Translations under genes and position numbers: made by a program
Shown here: positions 28,053-61,522 of the stretch, piece by piece
How the letters are laid out: every line of letters begins with the position of its first letter
How positions within the stretch are numbered: the stretch's first letter is position 1
From: Mobula hypostoma
Taxonomy: Eukaryota
DNA: 64,000 nt
Assembly (NCBI RefSeq): GCF_963921235.1
Contig: NC_086124.1
Span: 16,306,001 to 16,370,000 of the forward strand
Direction of reading: 5' to 3'
Notes under the pieces: generated by a model
What the model was told of the DNA's origin: nothing
Database searches by the model: none
Seen by the model: the letters and a program-made list of their open reading frames with translations, nothing else

Positions 28053-28183
28053 NNNNNNNNNNNNNNNNNNNNNNNNNNNNNNNNNNNNNNNNNNNNNNNN
28101 NNNNNNNNNNNNNNNNNNNNNNNNNNNNNNNNNNNNNNNNNNNNNNNNNNNNNNNNNNNNNNNNNNNNNNNNNNNNNNNNNNN
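28053..28183. other. 131-nt N run
   Basis: Same length as the homologous stretch in the intact copy (12978-13108). Confidence 0.95.
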
Positions 28184-38739: not shown

Positions 38740-40500
38740 TTCTCATCCTGTCAAAATGAATACTAACATTGAATTTCCCTTTCTTACAACTGACTCAACC
38801 AGGAAGTTACCCTTTACGGAGTTCTGCACAAGTACTCCCAAGACCCTTTGTACCTTTGATTTGTTTTAATCTTCTCCCTCTTTAGAAAATAGTCAATGTT
38901 TTTTTTTTCCTTCTACCAAATACATTACCATACACTTTCATGCAGTATATTGCATCTGCAAATTCTTTGTCCATTCTCCAAATCTCTCTGTCCTTTTGCA
39001 GACTCCCAGCTTTATGAAACTTCCTGCCTCTTCGCCTACAGTTTTATCATCCATTAACCTGGCCACAAAGACATCAATTCCATCATTCAAATCATTTACA
39101 TGTAACATGAAAATGAGCGGTCTCAAGAATAAACCTTGCAGCCAACCAGAAAAGGCCTCCATGATTCCCCCTCTTTGCCTCCTACTCATCGAACAATCTT
39201 CTATCCATACTGGTACCTTTCCTATAATACCATGGGTTCTTACCTTCATAAGCAACTGCATATTCAGCATCTTGTACAAGCCTTTCAGAAAATCCAAATA
39301 AACAACACCTACTGAATCTCCTTTGTCTATTTTGCTTGTTATTTCCTCAAAGACTTGCAACAGGTTTGTCAGGCAAGATTTCTCCTTTTGAAAACCCTGC
39401 TGACTTTGGCCCAGTTTATCATGTGCCTTCAAGTACCCCGAAAATTCATGAATACCAATGGACTTCAACATCTACCCAACCACTGAGTCAGACTAACTGG
39501 TCTTAAATTTCCTCCCTTCTGCCTCCCTCCCTTCTTAAAAGTGGAATGATATTTTCAATGTTCTGGTTCTCTGGAACCATACCTGAATTAGATTATTAGA
39601 TTAGATTAGATTATGAGGACACTCAGTCCTCATTTATTGTCATTTTGAAATGCATGCATTAAAAGATGATATAATGTTCCTCCAGTATGATATCATAGAA
39701 ACACAAGACAGACCAAGATTAAAACTGACAAAAAACACATAATTATAACATATAGTTACAACAGTGCAAAGCAATACCATAACTTGATAAGAGCAGACCA
39801 TGGGTATGGTAAAAAAAAAGTCTCAAATTCCTGATAGCCCCAACATCTCATGCAGATGGTAGAAGGAAGAAACTCTCCCTGCCATGAGCTTCCAGCGCCG
39901 CAAACTTGCCGATACAGATTCCTGGAAACACCCGGCCACAGTCCAACGCTGAGTCTGTCTGAAAACTTCAAGCCTCCGACACCAAGCACCAAGCACCATC
40001 TCTGCCGAGTGCTTCAACCCCGGCCCTGGCCACCAAGCAACAGGCAAAGCTGAGGACTCGGGGCCTTCCCCTCCGGAGATTTCAGATCACACAGTAGCAG
40101 CGACAGCGAAGCAAGCATTTCAGAAGTTTCACCAGATGTTCTTCCGTACTCTCACATCTGCCTCCATCAAATCAAAATTGTGCATGGTCTTCTACTTGAC
40201 ATATTACAGATATTCATCACTGGAGAGGCCGCACCACCATCTTCTCCTCCTCCTGTAGTGATTCTTGAAAGATCATTATTAACGCCTCCACAATCTCTTC
40301 AGCTAACTCTTTCAGAACCCATTTGGTCCAGTTGATTTATTTACCTTAAGACATTCCAGTTGCCCAAGCACCTTCTCCTTCCAGTATGTCCCCTTACACC
40401 CTCCAGCTTCCATCATACAGCTAATTTCTTTTACAGTGAAGATTGATGCAAAACAGTTTTTTTTAGTTCATCTGTAATTCCCTTGTCCCCCATTACTACC
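38740..40500 (-). mobile_element. Degenerate CR1 LINE with nested non-autonomous element
   Basis: ORF 38938-39471 has SQQGFQKEKSCLTNLL, GDSVGVVYLDF and HGIIGKV..WIED. Confidence 0.8.
39587..40255 (-). mobile_element. Non-autonomous retroposon-like element with (AATCT)n tail
   Basis: Minus strand starts GGAGGAGAAGATGG and ends AATAAA..GAGGACTGAGTGTCCTC-ATAATCTAATCT. Termini shared with 53300-53950; absent at the paralogous site ~47948. Confidence 0.6.
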
Positions 40501-42156
40501 TGATATTGATAAGCTCAGCATGGGTGCATAAAGCAGAACCAATGCAATCATTGATGTGGCACAAGATGAAATGGGCAGCATTACCCATGAAAGCTTGGAA
40601 CATGGACTGTTCCACATTCCTGTCACCAATAGCTCTCTAGCCATCCTTGTTCTCTGCACCACCCCCAATCACCCCCAACCTATCTATTATGGCAATTTCC
40701 CTCTCTCATTTCAGCCCTAAAGAGGGTCTCAGTCTGAAATGCTGACAGTTTATTGATGTCCATAAATGTTGCCTCACCTGGCAAGTTCCTCCAGCATTCT
40801 TATTCAAGTCTTGTTCTGGATTTCCAGCATTTGCAGGTTCTCTCATGTTCAGCAAATTCAGAATTCCGAGTTGCAAAAAGTCTGGGAACCGTCATGCAGG
40901 ATTCTGTAAAATTTAACTTGCAGCTCGGATTGGTGGTAAGCAAGGCAAACGCAATGTTCGCATTCATTTTCAGAGGCATAGAGTATAAAAGCAAGGATAT
41001 ACTGAGATTCCGCATGGTGGAAATTGAGATTAACTCACAAAATGCTGGAAGATCTCAGCTGGATAGACAACATTTCTGGAAAGGAATAAACAGTCAATAT
41101 TTCAGGCTGAGACTTTCTGCACAAAAAGTTACATCAGGAATGTCATGCTGAGGCTCTATGAGGCACTGGTCAGACAGCATTTGGGGTATTGTGAGCAGTA
41201 ATGAGTCCCTTATGTAAGAAAGGATGGAATGCTGAACACAGAACAGCTCATCATAGGAACAGGCCCTATTGCCCACAATATTTTGTCGAACTAATCAAAT
41301 TAGTAACCCAATGACCAAAGAAATGTCTGCCTATATATTACCCGTATCCTTCCTTACATTCACGTACCTATCAAAACTCTCTGAAAATCCCCAATATATC
41401 TGTGTCAACCATCACCATAGTATCCACCACATTCTGTATATAAAAAAAAACCTCACATCTCCTTTGAAATTACCCCCTTACATGTTTGTCTCTGGTATTA
41501 GGGAATTCAACCCTGAGAAGATATGATTTGTCGACTGTACATATGTTCCTCACAATCTTTTACATTTCTGATCTCCCCTCAGTCACTGCCACTCCAAAGA
41601 AAACAACCTAATTTTGCCCAACTTCTCATTGTAGCACAAGCCTTCTAATCCAGTCAACATTCAGAATCAGTTTTAATATCATTGGTATATGTCAGGAAAT
41701 TTGCCATAATCCTCTTTTCTCACCCTCTCCAAAGCCTCAACATATTTCTTATAATGGAGCAAACAGAACTGTATGCAGTACTCCAGATGAGGCAGAACCA
41801 GGGTTCTATAAAGTTCCAGTATAATAGTTAATAGATCATATTCACAGCTATTAAATCACTTAAACAGCAGCAAACATCGTTACCTCTATCTGCTCTATGG
41901 ATAAACTTTTGTGTGAGAAAATTGTGATAAACTGATTGATGTGAGAGGACAAAATGTCCGTGTTGGGGCAATGGGCAGGAACAGCAACAATGGCATTGTA
42001 CGAAGCAGTGGAAAGATTCATCAACAGAAACATTTACCTCCAAGAGTAAAACAAGCTTGTAGCGATCCAATATCAAATTATGAGTACAACTCTTCCCCGG
42101 AAACTAAGTGGCTCTTAAAAGTGCCATTGGGTTTGTCTTATCAGCATTCAGCCGCT

Positions 42157-42528
42157 TCATTTGGAACTGGTTTACTTGGTCACTGCTTTTGTCCCTTCCA
42201 ACATGATGCACTTGGCCAGTTCCCAGGATAGCAGCAGGCGAATGGTGGTCTGGATCTCCAGGGAGCTGAAGGTCGGCTACTTATTCTAATGGGTTAGACG
42301 GGAAGCCTCACCCACGACGAGCTCATAAATGTTGTTCACAAATGAGCTCATGATGCTCATGGGGTTGGAGGAGATGCTGGTATCAGGGTGAACCTGCTTC
42401 ATCACCTTGTACACATAGATGGAGTAAGTCTCCTTCCTCATCCTTTTGCACTTCTTGCCTCCCTTGCTTTGCGCTTCGAACACAGTTTTCTTTGTGCCCT
42501 TCTTGGCAGCTTTGGAGGGTTCACATAT
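42157..42528 (-). pseudogene. H2B: Histone H2B pseudogene (second lineage)
   Basis: Start lost (ATA); [20 protein letters not shown]...EASRLTH followed by TAG at 42286-42288. Stem-loop variant at 42110-42125. Confidence 0.92.
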
Positions 42529-48200: not shown

Positions 48201-48486
48201 CTGATTTTGATCAGCTCAGCATGGGTGCACGAAGCTATTGGCCAGAAGAAAATGCAGTCTAATCAAGGACAAGGGAAGCAGACAATCCACTTGTCTTCGT
48301 TTGACCCTTTTTGTGGACTCTGAACTGATTCTTGCTGTTGGATAATCTAATCAGAGCAACTGAATGTGGACACAGGAAGCTTCCAGTAATGATCTGCTAA
48401 ACCCGAGAGCATTCTCAAACAAGTAGCCACTTGTTATGTAAAGGGCGTGGACTCTGATCTGATTTTTTTTTAACTCTGGAACAATG

Positions 48487-48768
48487 TTTTTTTTTACAAA
48501 ATATACTTTATTCAAAAATAAAATTATGTACAATAAAACATGCAATGACTGTCAATCCTTTACAGACGTTTCCATTATGGTCTATACATTTCCACACTTT
48601 TAGCCACACACATGGCACTCTGTTGTTTCACCTTTCCACACCATTGTTGAGGGGTATACTCCCTGCCACCTGACCCCTCCCACACCCGTGGGAGAAGAAC
48701 CCTAAACCGTGGTCCTTCCCCACTGGGCACTTGCGGTGGGTGCACCAAGTTTCAGCGCGTCCCTCAGA
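48487..48768 (-). mobile_element. Tx1-like LINE 3' end
   Basis: Minus strand LRDALKLGAPTASAQWGRTTV*, then a 3' UTR with AATAAA and an A tail. Confidence 0.65.
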
Positions 48769-48852
48769 GCAACAAACCTGAGACCATTCTCAGAGGAGTA
48801 GCTACTTGTCATGTAAAATGCCAGAACTACAATCTGCAGTCTCATTAAACTC

Positions 48853-49373
48853 TGTCAGGGTTGCCTCAGTTTACTGGTTTGGACCAGTCAGAGTGTAAAG
48901 GCAGAAATACACAGGGCTGGGGTGGGCATAGCCATGAGGCAATGTTGGTTGTAGCCCTGTACAATGATCAGTAAGAAGGTGACCCAGGTAGGTCAGGTGA
49001 CCTTGAGCCAGTGGGATGGAGATGTAATGGTTCAATTGATGAGGAACAGTATATGACCCTGCAGTTCTAAATACGCAGGTGTGATAACTCTCCAGCAGCC
49101 AGAGACCAACCATTGCGGATAAGGAGGACCCCACGGACACATGGAGATTGGGACCATGAGGAATCCCTGTCCAGTGTAGTCTCCTTGTCCGTGTAATACC
49201 TTCTCTCTTCATTGACTGTTCATGGAGTGTCAGATGTTCTAGTATGGAGCACACAGGTATGATTGGAGTGTGCACCAGCATGCTTTTTAGTTGAAATAAT
49301 AAAGTTACTTGTTGGCAAATATAGATTTTCTGCGCCTTACTGATCTTTATTACAGGGGGCAATTCTTGTAACA
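48853..49373 (+). repeat. Putative retroviral 5' LTR
   Basis: Begins TGT and ends TAACA with imperfect inverted ends; AATAAA at 49298-49303; a PBS follows 4 nt later. The 5' boundary is inferred because no second LTR is present. Confidence 0.6.
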
Positions 49374-49377
49374 GAAT

Positions 49378-49395
49378 TGGCTTCCCTGGGTGGGC
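49378..49395 (+). promoter_or_regulatory. Primer binding site complementary to tRNA-Asn
   Basis: TGGCTTCCCTGGGTGGGC(TCG) versus TGGCGTCCCTGGGTGGGC expected from the vertebrate tRNA-Asn(GTT) 3' end; one mismatch. Confidence 0.8.
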
Positions 49396-49479
49396 TCGTG
49401 GATAAATCTCTTTGTTCAGCAGGAGACTCGAGTTGGGCCACGTGTGTGAGGTACAGAGATCTGGGGCTGGGTATTTAGT

Positions 49480-52400
49480 GGTTACTGACCCAGGATGAAG
49501 AATTCAGGAAATTCTGCAAGTCCAGAGGACTTGGATTGTTTTGATTCGAGGGGATACCTCCTGAAATACGTACTGGGGGAGGTGGCTGCAATATGAGGAG
49601 TTTGCTGGTCACCCTGGCTGTGAAGGGAAAACTGCTGGTGATGCCCTATGGAAAATCACCCAAGGGAATCTGTTGAGCAGGAAGTTTAAACAATTACAAA
49701 AAACAGTAGCAGTTGGTTGTTTTATTGAAGATTTGATAGAGTTATGACAAAATGCTAAAGCAGAATGGCATAGGTTAGAATCAGAAAATAAATGTTGGTA
49801 GAAAGCAGAAGCCCAGCAAAATATATTACCACAGGAAATCTAAAAATATCGCCATAAATCTGAGGCCGAGCGAGATAGGTTCGAAGGAGAACATAGAAGG
49901 CTCGAAAGGAGTTAGAAACCTTTAGAGAAAAGGTTACTGATTTATAGGATCAGAGAGGCATAGACTTGATGCATATGAACCAGTTTCAGTTAAAATGTGA
50001 GAAATTACTTAAATGGAAATGTAAACTAGAGAAGCAGCTGAACTAGAAAAGGATGAAGTAGAAGGATTAAGGAAACAGTGAAGTGACTTAAAGACAGCTA
50101 TGAATGTGATTCAGAAATCAGCACAAGTATTGCACAATCATGCAAAGTATTTAAAGCATATTCAAACACTGCAGGACCAACTTGCATAGCGAGGTATAGT
50201 ATGTGCTTTTGGATCTGAAAAAGGGAAAGGTGAATATGGAGATATTGATTGGCATTTGTAGATGAAGCTTCTAGAAACAGTTACGATAATTACGGGGCAT
50301 CATTTACCGAGCAAATCCCGCCTACACCATACCAACTGGAGCCAGTCTCACTGTCTGCACGATTGGCACCCCTAGTTACTATCAGAGAGGGGATCAGGGG
50401 AGCAAACCAAAAGCAGAATATAATATACACCACACCGTTTGGGGTACAGCACCTTAGAGATTTTGCTGAGGATATCCAGAGGTGTGCTCGGAGACTAATC
50501 TCGAGAGCTTTTCTAAGCAACTAATCATCAGAGAATAATACACTGCCGAGATGACTCTGAGGATAGGAAATTGAGTATATTGTGTTTACACACAAATTTA
50601 CACTCAGCTTTACCAGGTATACAACGACATGGTGGGGAACAAGTGAAGAACTGAAAAACGCAATAACGACTGTTATGGGTGTTAACAGAAGGGACCCAGT
50701 AAACGCGCCAGCCAAATGTTACCAGAGAAAAGGTCAACATCTCACTGCATTTGCATACCATTTATGAACTATATTCCAAGGGGATTATGGGACAGCATTA
50801 GAGCGGGACCATTTAGGACCAGAGGGCTCAAATAGTTGATTGAGGACACTGGTGTCTCACTGTATCGATGAATCTAAAAAGGCTATGGAAATGTTTGATC
50901 CTTTCTGAACCCACACATACTGAGGCATGTTTACAAAGGAAAATGTGTAGAGCGTAGGAAAAGGAGATACAAAGCCCAACTAAACTCCCTAATGGGAAGG
51001 TGACGCCCATTAAAAGTCAGTCAACTGCATGAAGAAATGAGGGTAGGGGACCCACAATAAGGGCCTCCCTGCCACACTATCAAGGGGCAAGGAAGAGCAG
51101 AGGAAATGGAACAGGCAGAACTGAAAGTGGAGTAATTCAATGCTATAGCTGTGGTCAACAGGGGCACAATAAGAGAGAAGGTCCAAGCCTGAGACAAGAA
51201 AGAGCAGAACAATGTGGTTTGCCCTTGGAGGGGCCAGAAAGACAGAGCCCATAAAATAACATGGCTGAGACCCCACCATCCAGGGAACTGTACCCTAAGC
51301 TTCAATGACAGTATCAGGCCTCACCAACACGGGTGTGTGACAAAACGTGGGATGAAACCGGAAGATCTCCAGTGAGTGGTAGAGTCAGAGGATGCCCTGT
51401 TACCTTTTTATGGGATACAGGAGGATCCCGAACCACAGTGAACACCACTAATATAAATAATGCAAATTGAAAGATACAAGGTAAAATTATCCTAAGTGGA
51501 TTCACAGGCCATTCACAATTTGGACATGTGAGTGTAGTATTGGAAGTCAGAATTGGAGACAGATCATTGAAACAGTCAATAGTGTTGGCGGAATTACCCA
51601 AGGAGCAGGACCATATACAAGGGTGTGATTATATGGCCAAAGCAGGGCTTTGTTTTGACTGAGTTAATTGTATGATTTGGCAGATGCCAACATGGGCATG
51701 AATATCATACACAACATGCAGATCCCAGCAGGAGTATATCAGGATAGGAAGATGTACAATGGGTGAAATGTGGAGAAAACTGGAGGAGATGAGCAATGAT
51801 CAATAACAGCCCCGAGTGTAGCAACTAACTGTGGACAAACAGAATAAAAGAGCGCTATGGTTCACAGTTTTGGACATAAGTAATGGATTTTTGTTTATCC
51901 CACTAGAAAGACAGTGTCAATTCACATTTGCATTTACCTTTCAGGGACAGCAGTATACATGGATTGCCCTACCACAGGGGTTCCATGATTCCCCGTCCGT
52001 ATTTCACCAATGTTTAGATGAAGGGTTAAAATGGTTTTCAACACCCAAATGCTTGGTGCAATATGTAGATGATCTCCTCCTGTAGACGGAAACCAAGCAG
52101 AACCATTTTAATTGGGACAGAATGTAAACTCTAAAAAAGCACAGGTAATGAAGCAAGAAGTTAGTTATTTGGAAATGATCCTGACACTGGGAAGAAGAGA
52201 AATTGAGAAGCAAAGAGTAGAATCGGTTATGAAACGGCATATTCTCCGAGACCTGAAAGGGCTACGTTCTTTTCTGGGGCTGGCAGGACACTGTAGGGAT
52301 CACATTGATGGATTTTTCATGAAAGCAGCTTCTTTAGTGGAGTTACTGAAAAAAAAATGTGGAGTGGGAATGGAAATAAGAACACACCCAGGCCATCACA

Positions 52401-52870
52401 GTTCTGAAACAAGCACTGGCTGCTGTACCTGCATTAAAAACCCCAAATCCGAATGAGTCATTCTCATTCGAGGTGGCAAAAAATGATATCACCCTCTCAG
52501 CAGTGCTGTTACAGGAGACACATGGGAATTCAAGACCAGTCATGTATGCATCACACATGCTCTCTCCGGTAGAACAGGGGTATACTGTATGTGAAAACCA
52601 CTTGTTAGCAGTTTTCAGTGTGGTACAACATTTTGCCTACATAGTGGGACTTAATTCACTTACAATACTGACAGAACATACCCCCACACAATTACTGTTA
52701 GCTGAAAGGATTAAAGATGGTTCAGTAAGCAAAAACAGAATTGCTAGATAGACACTGCTGCTGCAAGAAAGAAATATTAGTGTAAAGTGAGTAAACACTA
52801 CCACTATATGTACCAAGGAACTGAACATGAGTGTCAAATTATGATAGGAAATGATCCCAAGGACATATTT
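49480..52870 (+). pseudogene. Degenerate endogenous retrovirus gag-pro-pol (spuma/lokiretrovirus-like)
   Basis: Coiled-coil remnants (~49860-50190); protease FLWDTGGS (DTG at 51414-51422); RT WFTVLDISNGF..FAFTFQGQQYTW.ALPQGFHDSP..YVDD (52062-52073); LRSFLGLAG; RNase H-like tether RPVMYAS..LS..E...CE.HLLA..RIAR. Many stops and frameshifts; no integrase, env or 3' LTR. Confidence 0.85.
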
Positions 52871-53299
52871 GTATCAAAACAAAAATTAGGGAGTAGAAGT
52901 AGATCAGATAGAGTAATGACTGAGAACAAAGACAACTGGCTTGTCTGCTTCCCCTGTCCTTGATTAGACTACAGTTTCTTCTGGCCAACAAAGCAGAACC
53001 AATGCAGTCATTGATATGACACAAGATAAGACAGACAGTATTACCAGTGAAGGCAAGGAACATGGACTGTTCCACGTACCTATCACCAATCACTTTCCAG
53101 CCAGTCTTTGTTCCTACACACCCACCACCCCAACCTATCTACTACGGCAATTTCCCTCTTTCATTTCAGTCCTAAAGAAGTGTCTCTGCCCGAAACGCCA
53201 GCAGTTTATTCACGTCCATAGATGTTGGCTGACCTGCTGAGTTTCCAGCAGTTTTCATTCAAGTGTTGCTCTGGATTTCCAGCACCTGCAGGAAATATG

Positions 53300-55260: not shown

Positions 55261-55632
55261 TCACTAGGAACTAGTATACATGGTCACTGCTTTTGTGCTT
55301 TCCGACATTGTGTACTTGGACTGCTCCCTGGGTAGCAGCAGGCACATGGCACTCTGGATCTCCTAGAAACTGATGGTCGACCGCTTGTTCTAATGGTTTA
55401 GTTGGGAAACCTCATCCGCGATGCGCTCGAAAATGTCGTTCACCAATGAGCTCATGATGCTCGTGGCACTGGAGGAGATGCTGGTATCGGGGTGAACCTG
55501 CTTCTTCACCTTGTACACATAGATGGAGTAAGTCTCCTTCCTCATCCTTTTGCACTTCGTGCCTCCCTTACTTTGCGCTTTGGACACAGTTTTCTTGGCG
55601 CCCTTCTTGGCCACTTTGGATAGCTCAGGCAT
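55261..55632 (-). pseudogene. H2B: Histone H2B pseudogene (second lineage)
   Basis: [14 protein letters not shown]...EVSQLNH followed by TAG at 55390-55392. Stem-loop with a 1-nt deletion at 55214-55228. Confidence 0.92.
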
Positions 55633-55879
55633 TTCTTAAATCAGTTTCAGACACTGAATGAAATGGAACTGGTTGCATCACCAATTTAATTGGCAGCTAC
55701 ATCCTTGCCCTGTAGTAACATGGAATTGGCAAAATAAGGTTCTCATTGGTAGATATGGACAAATGAAAGCTAACGTTTCAATATAACCCTTTGATTGGGC
55801 AACGTGAACATGCCAACCACAGCCAAGGATGACCAAAGTCAAAAAGCCTTAGCAATGGTTCGTTGGTAACACAAGGAGA

Positions 55880-61391: not shown

Positions 61392-61522
61392 NNNNNNNNN
61401 NNNNNNNNNNNNNNNNNNNNNNNNNNNNNNNNNNNNNNNNNNNNNNNNNNNNNNNNNNNNNNNNNNNNNNNNNNNNNNNNNNNNNNNNNNNNNNNNNNNN
61501 NNNNNNNNNNNNNNNNNNNNNN
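61392..61522. other. 131-nt N run
   Basis: Same length and same flanks as 28053-28183. Confidence 0.95.

What the first reader, a model, noticed from the sequence alone, without database searches (positions are those of the whole stretch)
48853..52870. Spuma/lokiretrovirus-like ERV with tRNA-Asn PBS and a coiled-coil region ahead of gag
Seen: RT motifs LDISNGF, AFTFQGQQYTW.ALPQGFHDSP and YVDD are retrovirus-type (LPQG/YVDD) rather than Ty3/gypsy-type (MPFGL/YLDD). An RNase H-like tether follows. The PBS matches tRNA-Asn. Upstream fragments such as SEAERDRFEGEHRRLE..ELETFREKVTDL and LEKDEVEGLRKQ*SDLKTAMNVIQKSA look coiled-coil. From recall: foamy-virus RT has very similar LDLANGF/LPQGF/YVDD motifs, and lokiretroviruses were described with an SMC-like coiled-coil region. 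Inference: a deep-branching retroviral lineage in a probable cartilaginous fish, a host group that matters for dating retrovirus origins.
Basis: partly seen in the sequence, partly recalled or inferred. Interest (0 to 1): 0.7.

Follow-up and report, generated by a model that had tools for sequence, protein, structure and literature searches.

The report
Snakehead-like retrovirus fossil, two left ends
This is a dead, partly deleted retrovirus fossil in a probable ray or shark genome that groups with neither foamy viruses nor lokiretroviruses but is likely a relative of the snakehead-fish retrovirus; its coiled coil is the front part of Gag, its family's envelope is likely built like the fusion protein of measles-type viruses, and this copy likely integrated as a mis-copied DNA with two left ends.

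Summary
The motifs, the tRNA-Asn primer site (17/18 match to host tRNA-Asn genes) and the coiled coil are real; the label is not. Trees of natural RT/tether fragments put the family inside canonical retroviruses, with coelacanth and frog ERVs. They reject grouping with lokiretroviruses (AU p=1e-4), mammalian foamy viruses (4e-4) and class I (2e-8), but not with snakehead retrovirus (0.19-0.24). Lokiretroviruses carry CPFG, not LPQG. The coiled coil is the N-terminal part of Gag, as in SnRV and elephant-shark CmiERV-I, not an smc gene. The copy is longer than stated (48236-52990). It lacks the second RNase H, integrase and env, which other copies keep, and ends in an inverted 66-bp U3 piece inside a 4-bp target duplication. 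The same junction occurs at two unrelated loci, likely from a recurrent template switch. The family's Env looks F-type (language-model score 0.94; fold evidence weak), whereas CmiERV-I has a gamma-type Env. SnRV-like ERVs in chondrichthyans are published (2015). This scan has already noted the F-type Env (other genomes) and two-left-end copies (Gypsy elements). Shark/frog foamy-like ERVs could not be put in the tree. Verdict: new variant of a known group; modest interest.

The parts
48232..48235 (+). Left target-site duplication (AAGC)
   Evidence: Same 4-mer at 52991-52994; single copy at the empty paralogous site 40531-40534
48236..49373 (+). 5' LTR, about 860 bp without its insert; TG start decayed to TA, ends TGTAACA; TATA-like site near 49066, AATAAA at 49298
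   Evidence: Aligns to solo and paired LTRs of 843-872 bp, one of 1060 bp, at K2P 0.12-0.16; 1329 first-look candidates in the genome, 40 scored
48486..48763 (-). Later poly(A)-tailed insertion (SINE or LINE 3' end) inside the LTR
   Evidence: Absent from sister copies and from the two neighbouring paralogues; sequence ends in AATAAA plus an A run
49378..49395 (+). Primer binding site for tRNA-Asn(GTT), after a 4-nt spacer
   Evidence: 17/18 match to host tRNA-Asn genes; 12 distinct copies tallied carry 1-7 mismatches, rows with more than 7 not printed
49495..50200 (+). Gag N-terminal part: small helical head, then a coiled coil of about 150 residues (about 49700-50190); broken by stops and frameshifts
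   Evidence: Overlapping stop-free stretches of sister copies run from here into the capsid region; AlphaFold2 helices; heptad test; no SMC family in Pfam
50201..51305 (+). Rest of gag: DIDW motif, capsid-like region, Gly-rich stretch, one zinc knuckle (decayed here)
   Evidence: zf-CCHC E=0.005 in the window, 6e-7 in a sister copy; tiling; capsid identity inferred from position, not tested by fold
51306..51308 (+). In-frame TGA between gag and pro (likely read-through site)
   Evidence: TGA in 10 of the 11 copies where the junction was found, of 18 examined; SnRV has an in-frame TAG at the same place
51309..51700 (+). Protease (LWDTG motif), broken
   Evidence: aspartyl-protease Pfam hits E=1e-4 to 2e-3, below curated cut-offs, in a sister copy
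51701..52380 (+). Reverse transcriptase, about 300 bp deleted at 51803, with stops and frameshifts
52380..52924 (+). Tether (degenerate RNase H) and linker; the element breaks off before the second RNase H
   Evidence: Pfam PF17919/PF17917; sister copies continue into RNase H, integrase and env
52925..52990 (-). Inverted copy of the first 66 bp of U3, forming the right end of the insertion; joined at an inverted microhomology of about 10 nt
   Evidence: same junction at two unrelated loci
52991..52994 (+). Right target-site duplication (AAGC)

Best explanation
The locus is a decayed, internally deleted provirus of a multi-copy endogenous retrovirus family that likely belongs to the snakehead-retrovirus-like (clade Huo, class III) group, and its coiled coil is the N-terminal part of Gag. 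Shown: LTR, tRNA-Asn PBS, gag running from coiled coil to zinc knuckle, in-frame TGA, PR-RT-tether, and in sister copies a second RNase H, integrase, env, polypurine tract and 4-bp target duplications. Inferred for the progenitor virus: priming by tRNA-Asn; Gag-Pol made by stop-codon read-through; the coiled coil serving as the matrix-equivalent oligomerisation part of Gag; entry through an F-type (paramyxovirus/foamy-like) Env with an exchangeable N-terminal module (about 70% likely). Inferred for this copy (about 70%): the nascent plus strand, 66 nt into U3, paired with a complementary 10-nt stretch in the pol linker of a plus-sense template and was extended backwards through pol, gag and the LTR. 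That gave a DNA with two U3 attachment ends, which integrase inserted with a 4-bp duplication. The locus was later duplicated with the surrounding histone-gene units and has no function now.
For: Two IQ-TREE runs (62 and 42 rows, unjoined natural fragments) place the five host rows (100/99) with coelacanth, frog and unnamed ERVs (99/97 and 99/96), inside canonical retroviruses (100/97 with gypsy as outgroup). AU tests reject loki, foamy and class I and do not reject SnRV (p=0.24; p=0.19). Identity of the window RT piece: SnRV 47/82, WDSV-like 35/82, foamy 32/78, loki 27/80. By eye over a 47-residue RT block of a sister copy: SnRV 38, CmiERV-I 38, WDSV 27, ZFERV-2 24, Loki-Bsp 21 (rows seen; manual counts). 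SnRV Gag has the strongest heptad score tested (0 of 200 shuffles), then a DW motif, one knuckle and an in-frame stop; CmiERV-I shows the same order and a CAA-TGA-C junction (by eye). Env: short pre-cleavage segment, RRKR site, hydrophobic peptide, long heptads, Cys-rich beta region, membrane anchor; ESM Atlas 0.94 with 197 shared features to Fusion_gly and Baculo_F clusters; the top 11 Foldseek PDB rows are all post-fusion F or foamy Env chains. Inverted end: exact TSD and empty site; 3 loci with the junction, control 0; at one of them both U3 copies share a private insertion, so it arose separately.
Against: SnRV itself does not fall in the host clade in either free tree (it sits with class I at 88/95 and 87/78), so 'SnRV-like' rests on identity, anatomy and non-rejection. 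No labelled HERV-L/MuERV-L, CmiERV-I, CmiFLERV or XtrFLERV sequence was in the trees; the class III rows are labelled by motif only. Host rows fill only 17-68% of the columns. Gag shows no significant BLAST match to SnRV Gag outside the knuckle and no Gag homologue was found. Env: no Pfam fusion family, no PDB sequence hit, model pLDDT 48, Foldseek E only 0.016-0.3, VIA best Z 6.2 to unrelated helices with F proteins at Z 3.1-4.1. The folded Env was a stingray homologue, 48% identical in the core, not this family's own. The TSDs of the two other junction loci match 3 of 4 bases.
Confidence: 0.78

Rival explanations
1. It is a basal foamy-like ERV of the shark/frog FLERV group: Asn primer, Gag coiled coil and F-type Env would be inherited foamy traits.
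For: NviFLERV-1 and -2 and galago foamy virus use a tRNA-Asn PBS, and shark FLERVs group with a frog FLERV (passages of PMC5512871); the host clade contains frog and coelacanth rows; foamy Env is F-like (PMC11468914, abstract and passages); CmiFLERV and XtrFLERV sequences could not be seen.
Against: Host plus 9 mammalian foamy rows rejected (p=3.8e-4); MLV RT scores higher than foamy Pol (146 against 109 bits); Gag has a zinc knuckle and an in-frame stop before pro, which foamy viruses lack (recalled); fish FLERV rows differ in the RT block (24/47 by eye).
Confidence: 0.1
2. It is a lokiretrovirus, the first in cartilaginous fish, with an smc gene before gag.
For: Dual RNase H; closest named Pol records are annotated NYNRIN-like, and loki integrase is reported close to CGIN1 (CGIN1 = NYNRIN is recalled); F-type-looking Env; none of the chondrichthyan genomes in the loki screen was positive (Fig. 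S1 rows 1, 3, 1, 1 genomes, all 0).
Against: Loki RT rows read PFG; AU p=1.1e-4, though with only two loki rows; 33-37% identity; no SMC family in Pfam, Atlas or fold search; the coiled coil is continuous with gag; Loki-Bsp has a different PBS; a loki RT pattern found nothing in this genome with one mismatch allowed.
Confidence: 0.03
3. Same family assignment, but the inverted end arose after integration by two replication-fork template switches (linker to 5' U3, then back to the 3' end at the shared AACA).
For: The microhomology at the linker would serve either process; both LTR ends share AACA; one junction locus shows a second switch into sense env.
Against: It needs two switches to recur in the same way at two loci; one switch during reverse transcription explains the exact stop at U3 base 1 and the TSD; U3-to-U3 distance (6/64) is of the same order as the distance between the duplicated flanks (0.13).
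Confidence: 0.2

Closest known systems
CmiERV lineage I of the elephant shark (Han 2015, PMC4422223; first of two text parts and first supplement part read)
   Same: Chondrichthyan host; clustered there with SnRV. By eye from the published DNA: long Gag coiled coil, DW motif, one zinc knuckle, CAA-TGA-C at the gag end, RT block 38/47 identical, second RNase H and integrase.
   Different: Different PBS (recalled as tRNA-Ser type); its env reads as gamma-type (LQNRMALD and CX6CC, by eye), while this family's env looks F-type; unrelated LTR.
Snakehead retrovirus (SnRV) and clade Huo / class III (Xu et al. 2018, PMC6001957, passages; PMC12193657, passages)
   Same: Highest RT identity among labelled references; Gag coiled coil, single knuckle, in-frame stop before pro; weak Env match around the cleavage site (30% over 93 aa, pairwise E=0.001).
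   Different: Not sister in the free trees; different PBS; TGA instead of TAG; SnRV Env frame is 1134 codons with a 3' ORF behind it; no such accessory frame was looked for systematically here.
Lokiretroviruses (Wang and Han 2021, PMC7947760; three of four text parts and supplement passages read) and Bik-1 (bioRxiv 2024.03.25.586437, passages)
   Same: Dual RNase H; F-like Env with RXKR site; N-terminal Gag coiled coil in Bik-1.
   Different: PFG against LPQG in RT; grouping rejected; no smc gene; different PBS in the one loki element seen.
Foamy viruses and FLERVs (PMC5512871, PMC11468914; passages)
   Same: LPQGF/YVDD motifs; Asn PBS in some; F-like Env; Gag coiled coil.
   Different: Grouping with mammalian foamy viruses rejected; zinc knuckle and gag-pro read-through stop present; in the foamy Env the extra domain is inserted between the subunits, here it precedes the F-like core.
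Template-switch by-products of reverse transcription with inverted LTR ends (earlier scan notes on Gypsy and Copia elements; the Sabot and Schulman 2007 paper they name was not read)
   Same: One TSD-flanked insertion with U3 at both ends.
   Different: Here in a retrovirus, with a defined 10-nt inverted microhomology used at three loci.

Membership tests
Lokiretrovirus | RT groups with lokiretroviruses, sister to canonical retroviruses | tested here: not met
   AU p=1.1e-4; inside canonical clade 100/97; only two loki rows, labelled by motif
Lokiretrovirus | Dual RNase H (tether plus RH) | tested here: met
   Tether in window; RNase_H E=5e-18 in a sister copy; shared with all retroviruses
Lokiretrovirus | Env similar to Mononegavirales F (PF00523) | tested here: inconclusive
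   No PF00523 hit; Atlas 0.94 to a Fusion_gly cluster; Foldseek top rows F proteins at E 0.016-0.3
Lokiretrovirus | Separate smc gene (some members only) | tested here: not met
   Coiled coil continuous with gag; no SMC match
Lokiretrovirus | Integrase closest to CGIN1 | not tested
   No integrase tree built; 'NYNRIN-like' names are automatic labels
Spumaretrovirinae / FLERVs | RT groups with foamy viruses | tested here: not met
   AU p=3.8e-4 against 9 mammalian foamy rows; fish, shark and frog FLERVs not in the tree
Spumaretrovirinae / FLERVs | Gag without zinc knuckle; Pol expressed apart from Gag (recalled) | tested here: not met
   zf-CCHC E=6e-7; in-frame TGA in 10 of 11 copies
Spumaretrovirinae / FLERVs | Grouping with CmiFLERV / XtrFLERV | not testable with these tools
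   Their sequences were not in the supplements held
SnRV-like / clade Huo (class III) | RT groups with SnRV and class III ERVs | tested here: inconclusive
   Not rejected, p=0.24 and 0.19, but not recovered in the free trees; sister to ERV-L-motif rows at 87/65 and 96/89
SnRV-like / clade Huo (class III) | Gag with N-terminal coiled coil, single knuckle and in-frame stop before pro, as in SnRV (trait seen here, not a published definition) | tested here: met
Class I (gamma/epsilon) | RT groups with gamma- and epsilonretroviruses | tested here: not met
   AU p=1.8e-8
Class I (gamma/epsilon) | Gamma-type Env (TLV_coat) | tested here: not met
   No TLV_coat hit in 9 env fragments; no ISD/CX6CC seen
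Ty3/gypsy (Metaviridae) | RT groups with gypsy; single RNase H | tested here: not met
   Trees; second RNase H in sister copies

The most novel reading that the evidence does not exclude
The family, with its coelacanth and frog relatives and the ERV-L-like group, is the deepest split of canonical retroviruses and keeps the ancestral F-type envelope shared with lokiretroviruses and foamy viruses, with a swappable N-terminal receptor module; gamma-type Env was then acquired later and more than once, even inside this clade (CmiERV-I).
Probability: 0.2. Interest if true: 0.7.

Novelty: new variant of a known kind. Interest (0 to 1): 0.36.

Why it matters
What remains: (1) an SnRV-like lineage whose Env looks F-type while its published elephant-shark relative has a gamma-type Env, which bears on the four open scenarios for Env origin in Wang and Han 2021; (2) an N-terminal Env module that differs completely between this family and a stingray homologue while the core stays 48% identical; (3) three fossil integrations with one strand-transfer error, which show that a short internal complement to U3 can misdirect plus-strand DNA in a vertebrate germ line. 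None of this dates retrovirus origins.

Tried and rejected
Loki RT pattern: 0 matches in viral contigs and in this genome (decayed copies would be missed); 3 in metagenome contigs, two used as references. Fold search of the Gag coiled-coil model in BFVD: nothing at E<=0.001; Atlas hits all <=0.85. Gag homologue search: one chance knuckle hit. BLAST of Gag pieces against SnRV Gag: only the knuckle. Env: Pfam, PDB sequence search, BFVD fold search (top rows unrelated, foamy Env at rank 30) and VIA gave no significant match. Cluster look-up named 2 of 10 clusters. Rows left out: from tree 1, four intended rows missing after extraction; from tree 2, 20 rows (class II, long branches, near-duplicates; listed). 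The basal position of the host clade in tree 2 (rest of retroviruses 94/94, drawn open) is not claimed. Dating: LTR-pair K2P 0.135, 0.098, 0.092, 0.063 on 807, 88, 293 and 265 sites gives about 14-31 My at 2.2e-9 or 140-310 My at the 2.2e-10 assumed by Han 2015, so age is open tenfold. Literature searches; none listed a paper reporting an F-type Env in SnRV-like ERVs or a two-U3 retroviral provirus, but the library lacks most subscription papers, and Hotzel 2021 (passages) does not mention SnRV. The supplement of PMC7947760 was cut when stored; bioRxiv supplements are closed.
Full report
1. Observation. The RT motifs, tether, PBS and coiled-coil fragments are in the sequence as described. The PBS (49378-49395) matches 17 of 18 nt of the complement of host tRNA-Asn(GTT) genes found by pattern search and ARAGORN. 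Heptad periodicity in three sister-copy stretches is reached by at most 1 of 200 shuffles, and AlphaFold2 predicts two long helices.

2. Anatomy. The element spans 48236-52990, not 48853-52870. The 5' LTR is about 860 bp plus a later 278-bp poly(A)-tailed insertion. It belongs to a large family: 40 of 181 pol candidates were scored and match at 77-85%, and the LTR search had 1329 candidates. Of 15 LTR loci examined, 11 gave both ends and 9 of these show a 4-bp duplication with at least 3 of 4 bases alike. Sister copies carry a polypurine tract, a second RNase H (E=5e-18), an integrase zinc finger and core (E=1e-18, 7e-13) and env. The window copy lacks about 300 bp of RT and everything after the tether linker.

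3. The coiled coil is Gag. Stop-free stretches from different copies overlap in frame: head and coiled coil (window 49499-50230), coiled-coil end through the DIDW motif (50071-50332), on into the capsid-like region (50193-50513 and 50131-50832, the latter with an out-of-frame middle), then to the zinc knuckle and the end of gag (50686-51305) (the middle of that output was cut from view). No single copy was seen open from end to end, and none was built. Gag ends in an in-frame TGA in 10 of 11 copies where the junction was found; SnRV has an in-frame TAG there. The SnRV genome, retrieved by motif and recognised from the published RT row and length, has an N-terminal Gag coiled coil with the highest heptad score tested. 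CmiERV lineage I shows the same order when its published DNA is read by eye. Bik-1 Gag also has an N-terminal coiled coil (passages), so the trait does not mark one lineage. No SMC match appeared.

4. Placement. References came from tools: 9 foamy, 2 loki (labelled by the PFG motif seen in the supplement of PMC7947760), SnRV, gamma, epsilon, class II and gypsy rows, and the Pol hits. In both trees the five host rows form a clade (100/99) inside a group with coelacanth, frog and unnamed ERVs (99/97, 99/96), next to rows with an ERV-L-like motif (87/65, 96/89). With gypsy as outgroup loki is sister to all the rest (100/97). AU tests reject host+loki (p=1.1e-4), host+foamy (3.8e-4) and host+class I (1.8e-8). 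They do not reject the host clade with SnRV (0.24; 0.19), but the free trees put SnRV elsewhere with weak support. PDB sequence scores rank MLV (146 bits) over foamy (109) and Ty3 (98). SnRV-related ERVs are published for the elephant shark, and clade Huo is reported in all major vertebrate lineages. Limits: short host rows, two loki rows, and no labelled ERV-L, CmiERV-I or shark/frog FLERV in the trees. An Asn PBS is known from newt FLERVs and galago foamy virus, so it is not diagnostic.

5. Envelope of the family (absent from the window). Fragments from nine loci give an N-terminal domain, a Thr/Pro hinge, a short segment, an RRKR site, a hydrophobic peptide, long heptads, a Cys-rich beta region and a membrane anchor. 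The ESM Atlas scores the core 0.94 against Baculo_F and Fusion_gly clusters (shuffles reach 0.9 in 4-10 of 100 cases, not measured for parts). Named relatives are from Hypanus sabinus (49%) and Heterodontus francisci (74-75% over a quarter), the best direct hint of a chondrichthyan host. A model of the stingray record was poor (pLDDT 48). Its top 11 Foldseek PDB rows are post-fusion F or foamy Env chains, but at E 0.016-0.3, and VIA did not single them out. I put F-type at about 70%. CmiERV-I has a gamma-type env by eye, so Env type seems to change within this group. Two earlier scan notes from other genomes reached the same reading; they are leads, not support.

6. The inverted end. The right end (52925-52990) is the reverse complement of the first 66 bp of U3 and ends in CA. 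AAGC flanks both ends and occurs once at the empty paralogous site. U3 bases of about 57-66 match the reverse complement of the pol linker over about 10 nt. A junction-specific pattern finds three loci on three contigs, control 0. One has the window's layout with other flanks and a private insertion in both U3 copies; the other switches on into sense env and a normal 3' LTR. The simplest account (inferred) is that nascent plus-strand DNA paired with the linker on a plus-sense template and was extended backwards, giving two U3 attachment ends for integrase. A double switch after integration is the rival. Earlier scan notes describe two-left-end copies of Gypsy and Copia elements, one in this genome.

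7. Age. LTR-pair distances of 0.06-0.14 give 14-31 My or 140-310 My depending on the rate assumed, so the copies say nothing firm about retrovirus origins.

8. Verdict. Observation confirmed; interpretation partly supported. A dead provirus of an SnRV-like, class III-type family: new variant of a known kind, interest 0.36. The most novel open reading, an ancestral F-type Env in the deepest canonical clade, has about 20% probability.

Noticed in passing
window 40000-64000: Tandem units of about 13 kb with decayed histone H2B-like genes (55390-55635 minus, Pfam Histone E=3e-9; related copies near 42275, 44513, 61525). The provirus sits in one unit; the unit at 40256-40837 holds the empty site.
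   Followed up: partly
L034 and L035 (about 23 and 33 kb beyond the window copy): Two paralogues of the same insertion, made by segmental duplication; flanks differ by K2P 0.13. One keeps only LTR and PBS; the other keeps gag-pro and the inverted end.
   Followed up: yes
L176:4597-7632: A copy that starts with U3 1-66, runs about 110 bp antisense through the pol linker, then switches to sense env, PPT and 3' LTR; TSD 3 of 4.
   Followed up: yes
L015, L017, L018, L024, L029, L067 env regions: Six of the 21 ten-kb loci read downstream of the tether show a similar large internal env deletion joining the N-terminal part to the membrane-proximal part; may mark an intracellularly amplified subfamily.
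   Followed up: no
P0078 against P0077: The stingray Env record and this family share the F-like core (48%; 43% C-terminal part) but have unrelated N-terminal 200 residues before a Thr/Pro-rich hinge.
   Followed up: partly
L013, L023, L026, L028, L067 PBS: Several copies share a changed PBS 3' half (4-7 mismatches to tRNA-Asn); may be a subfamily primed by a variant tRNA.
   Followed up: no
window 28053-28183 and 61392-61522: Two runs of 131 N, outside the finding.
   Followed up: no
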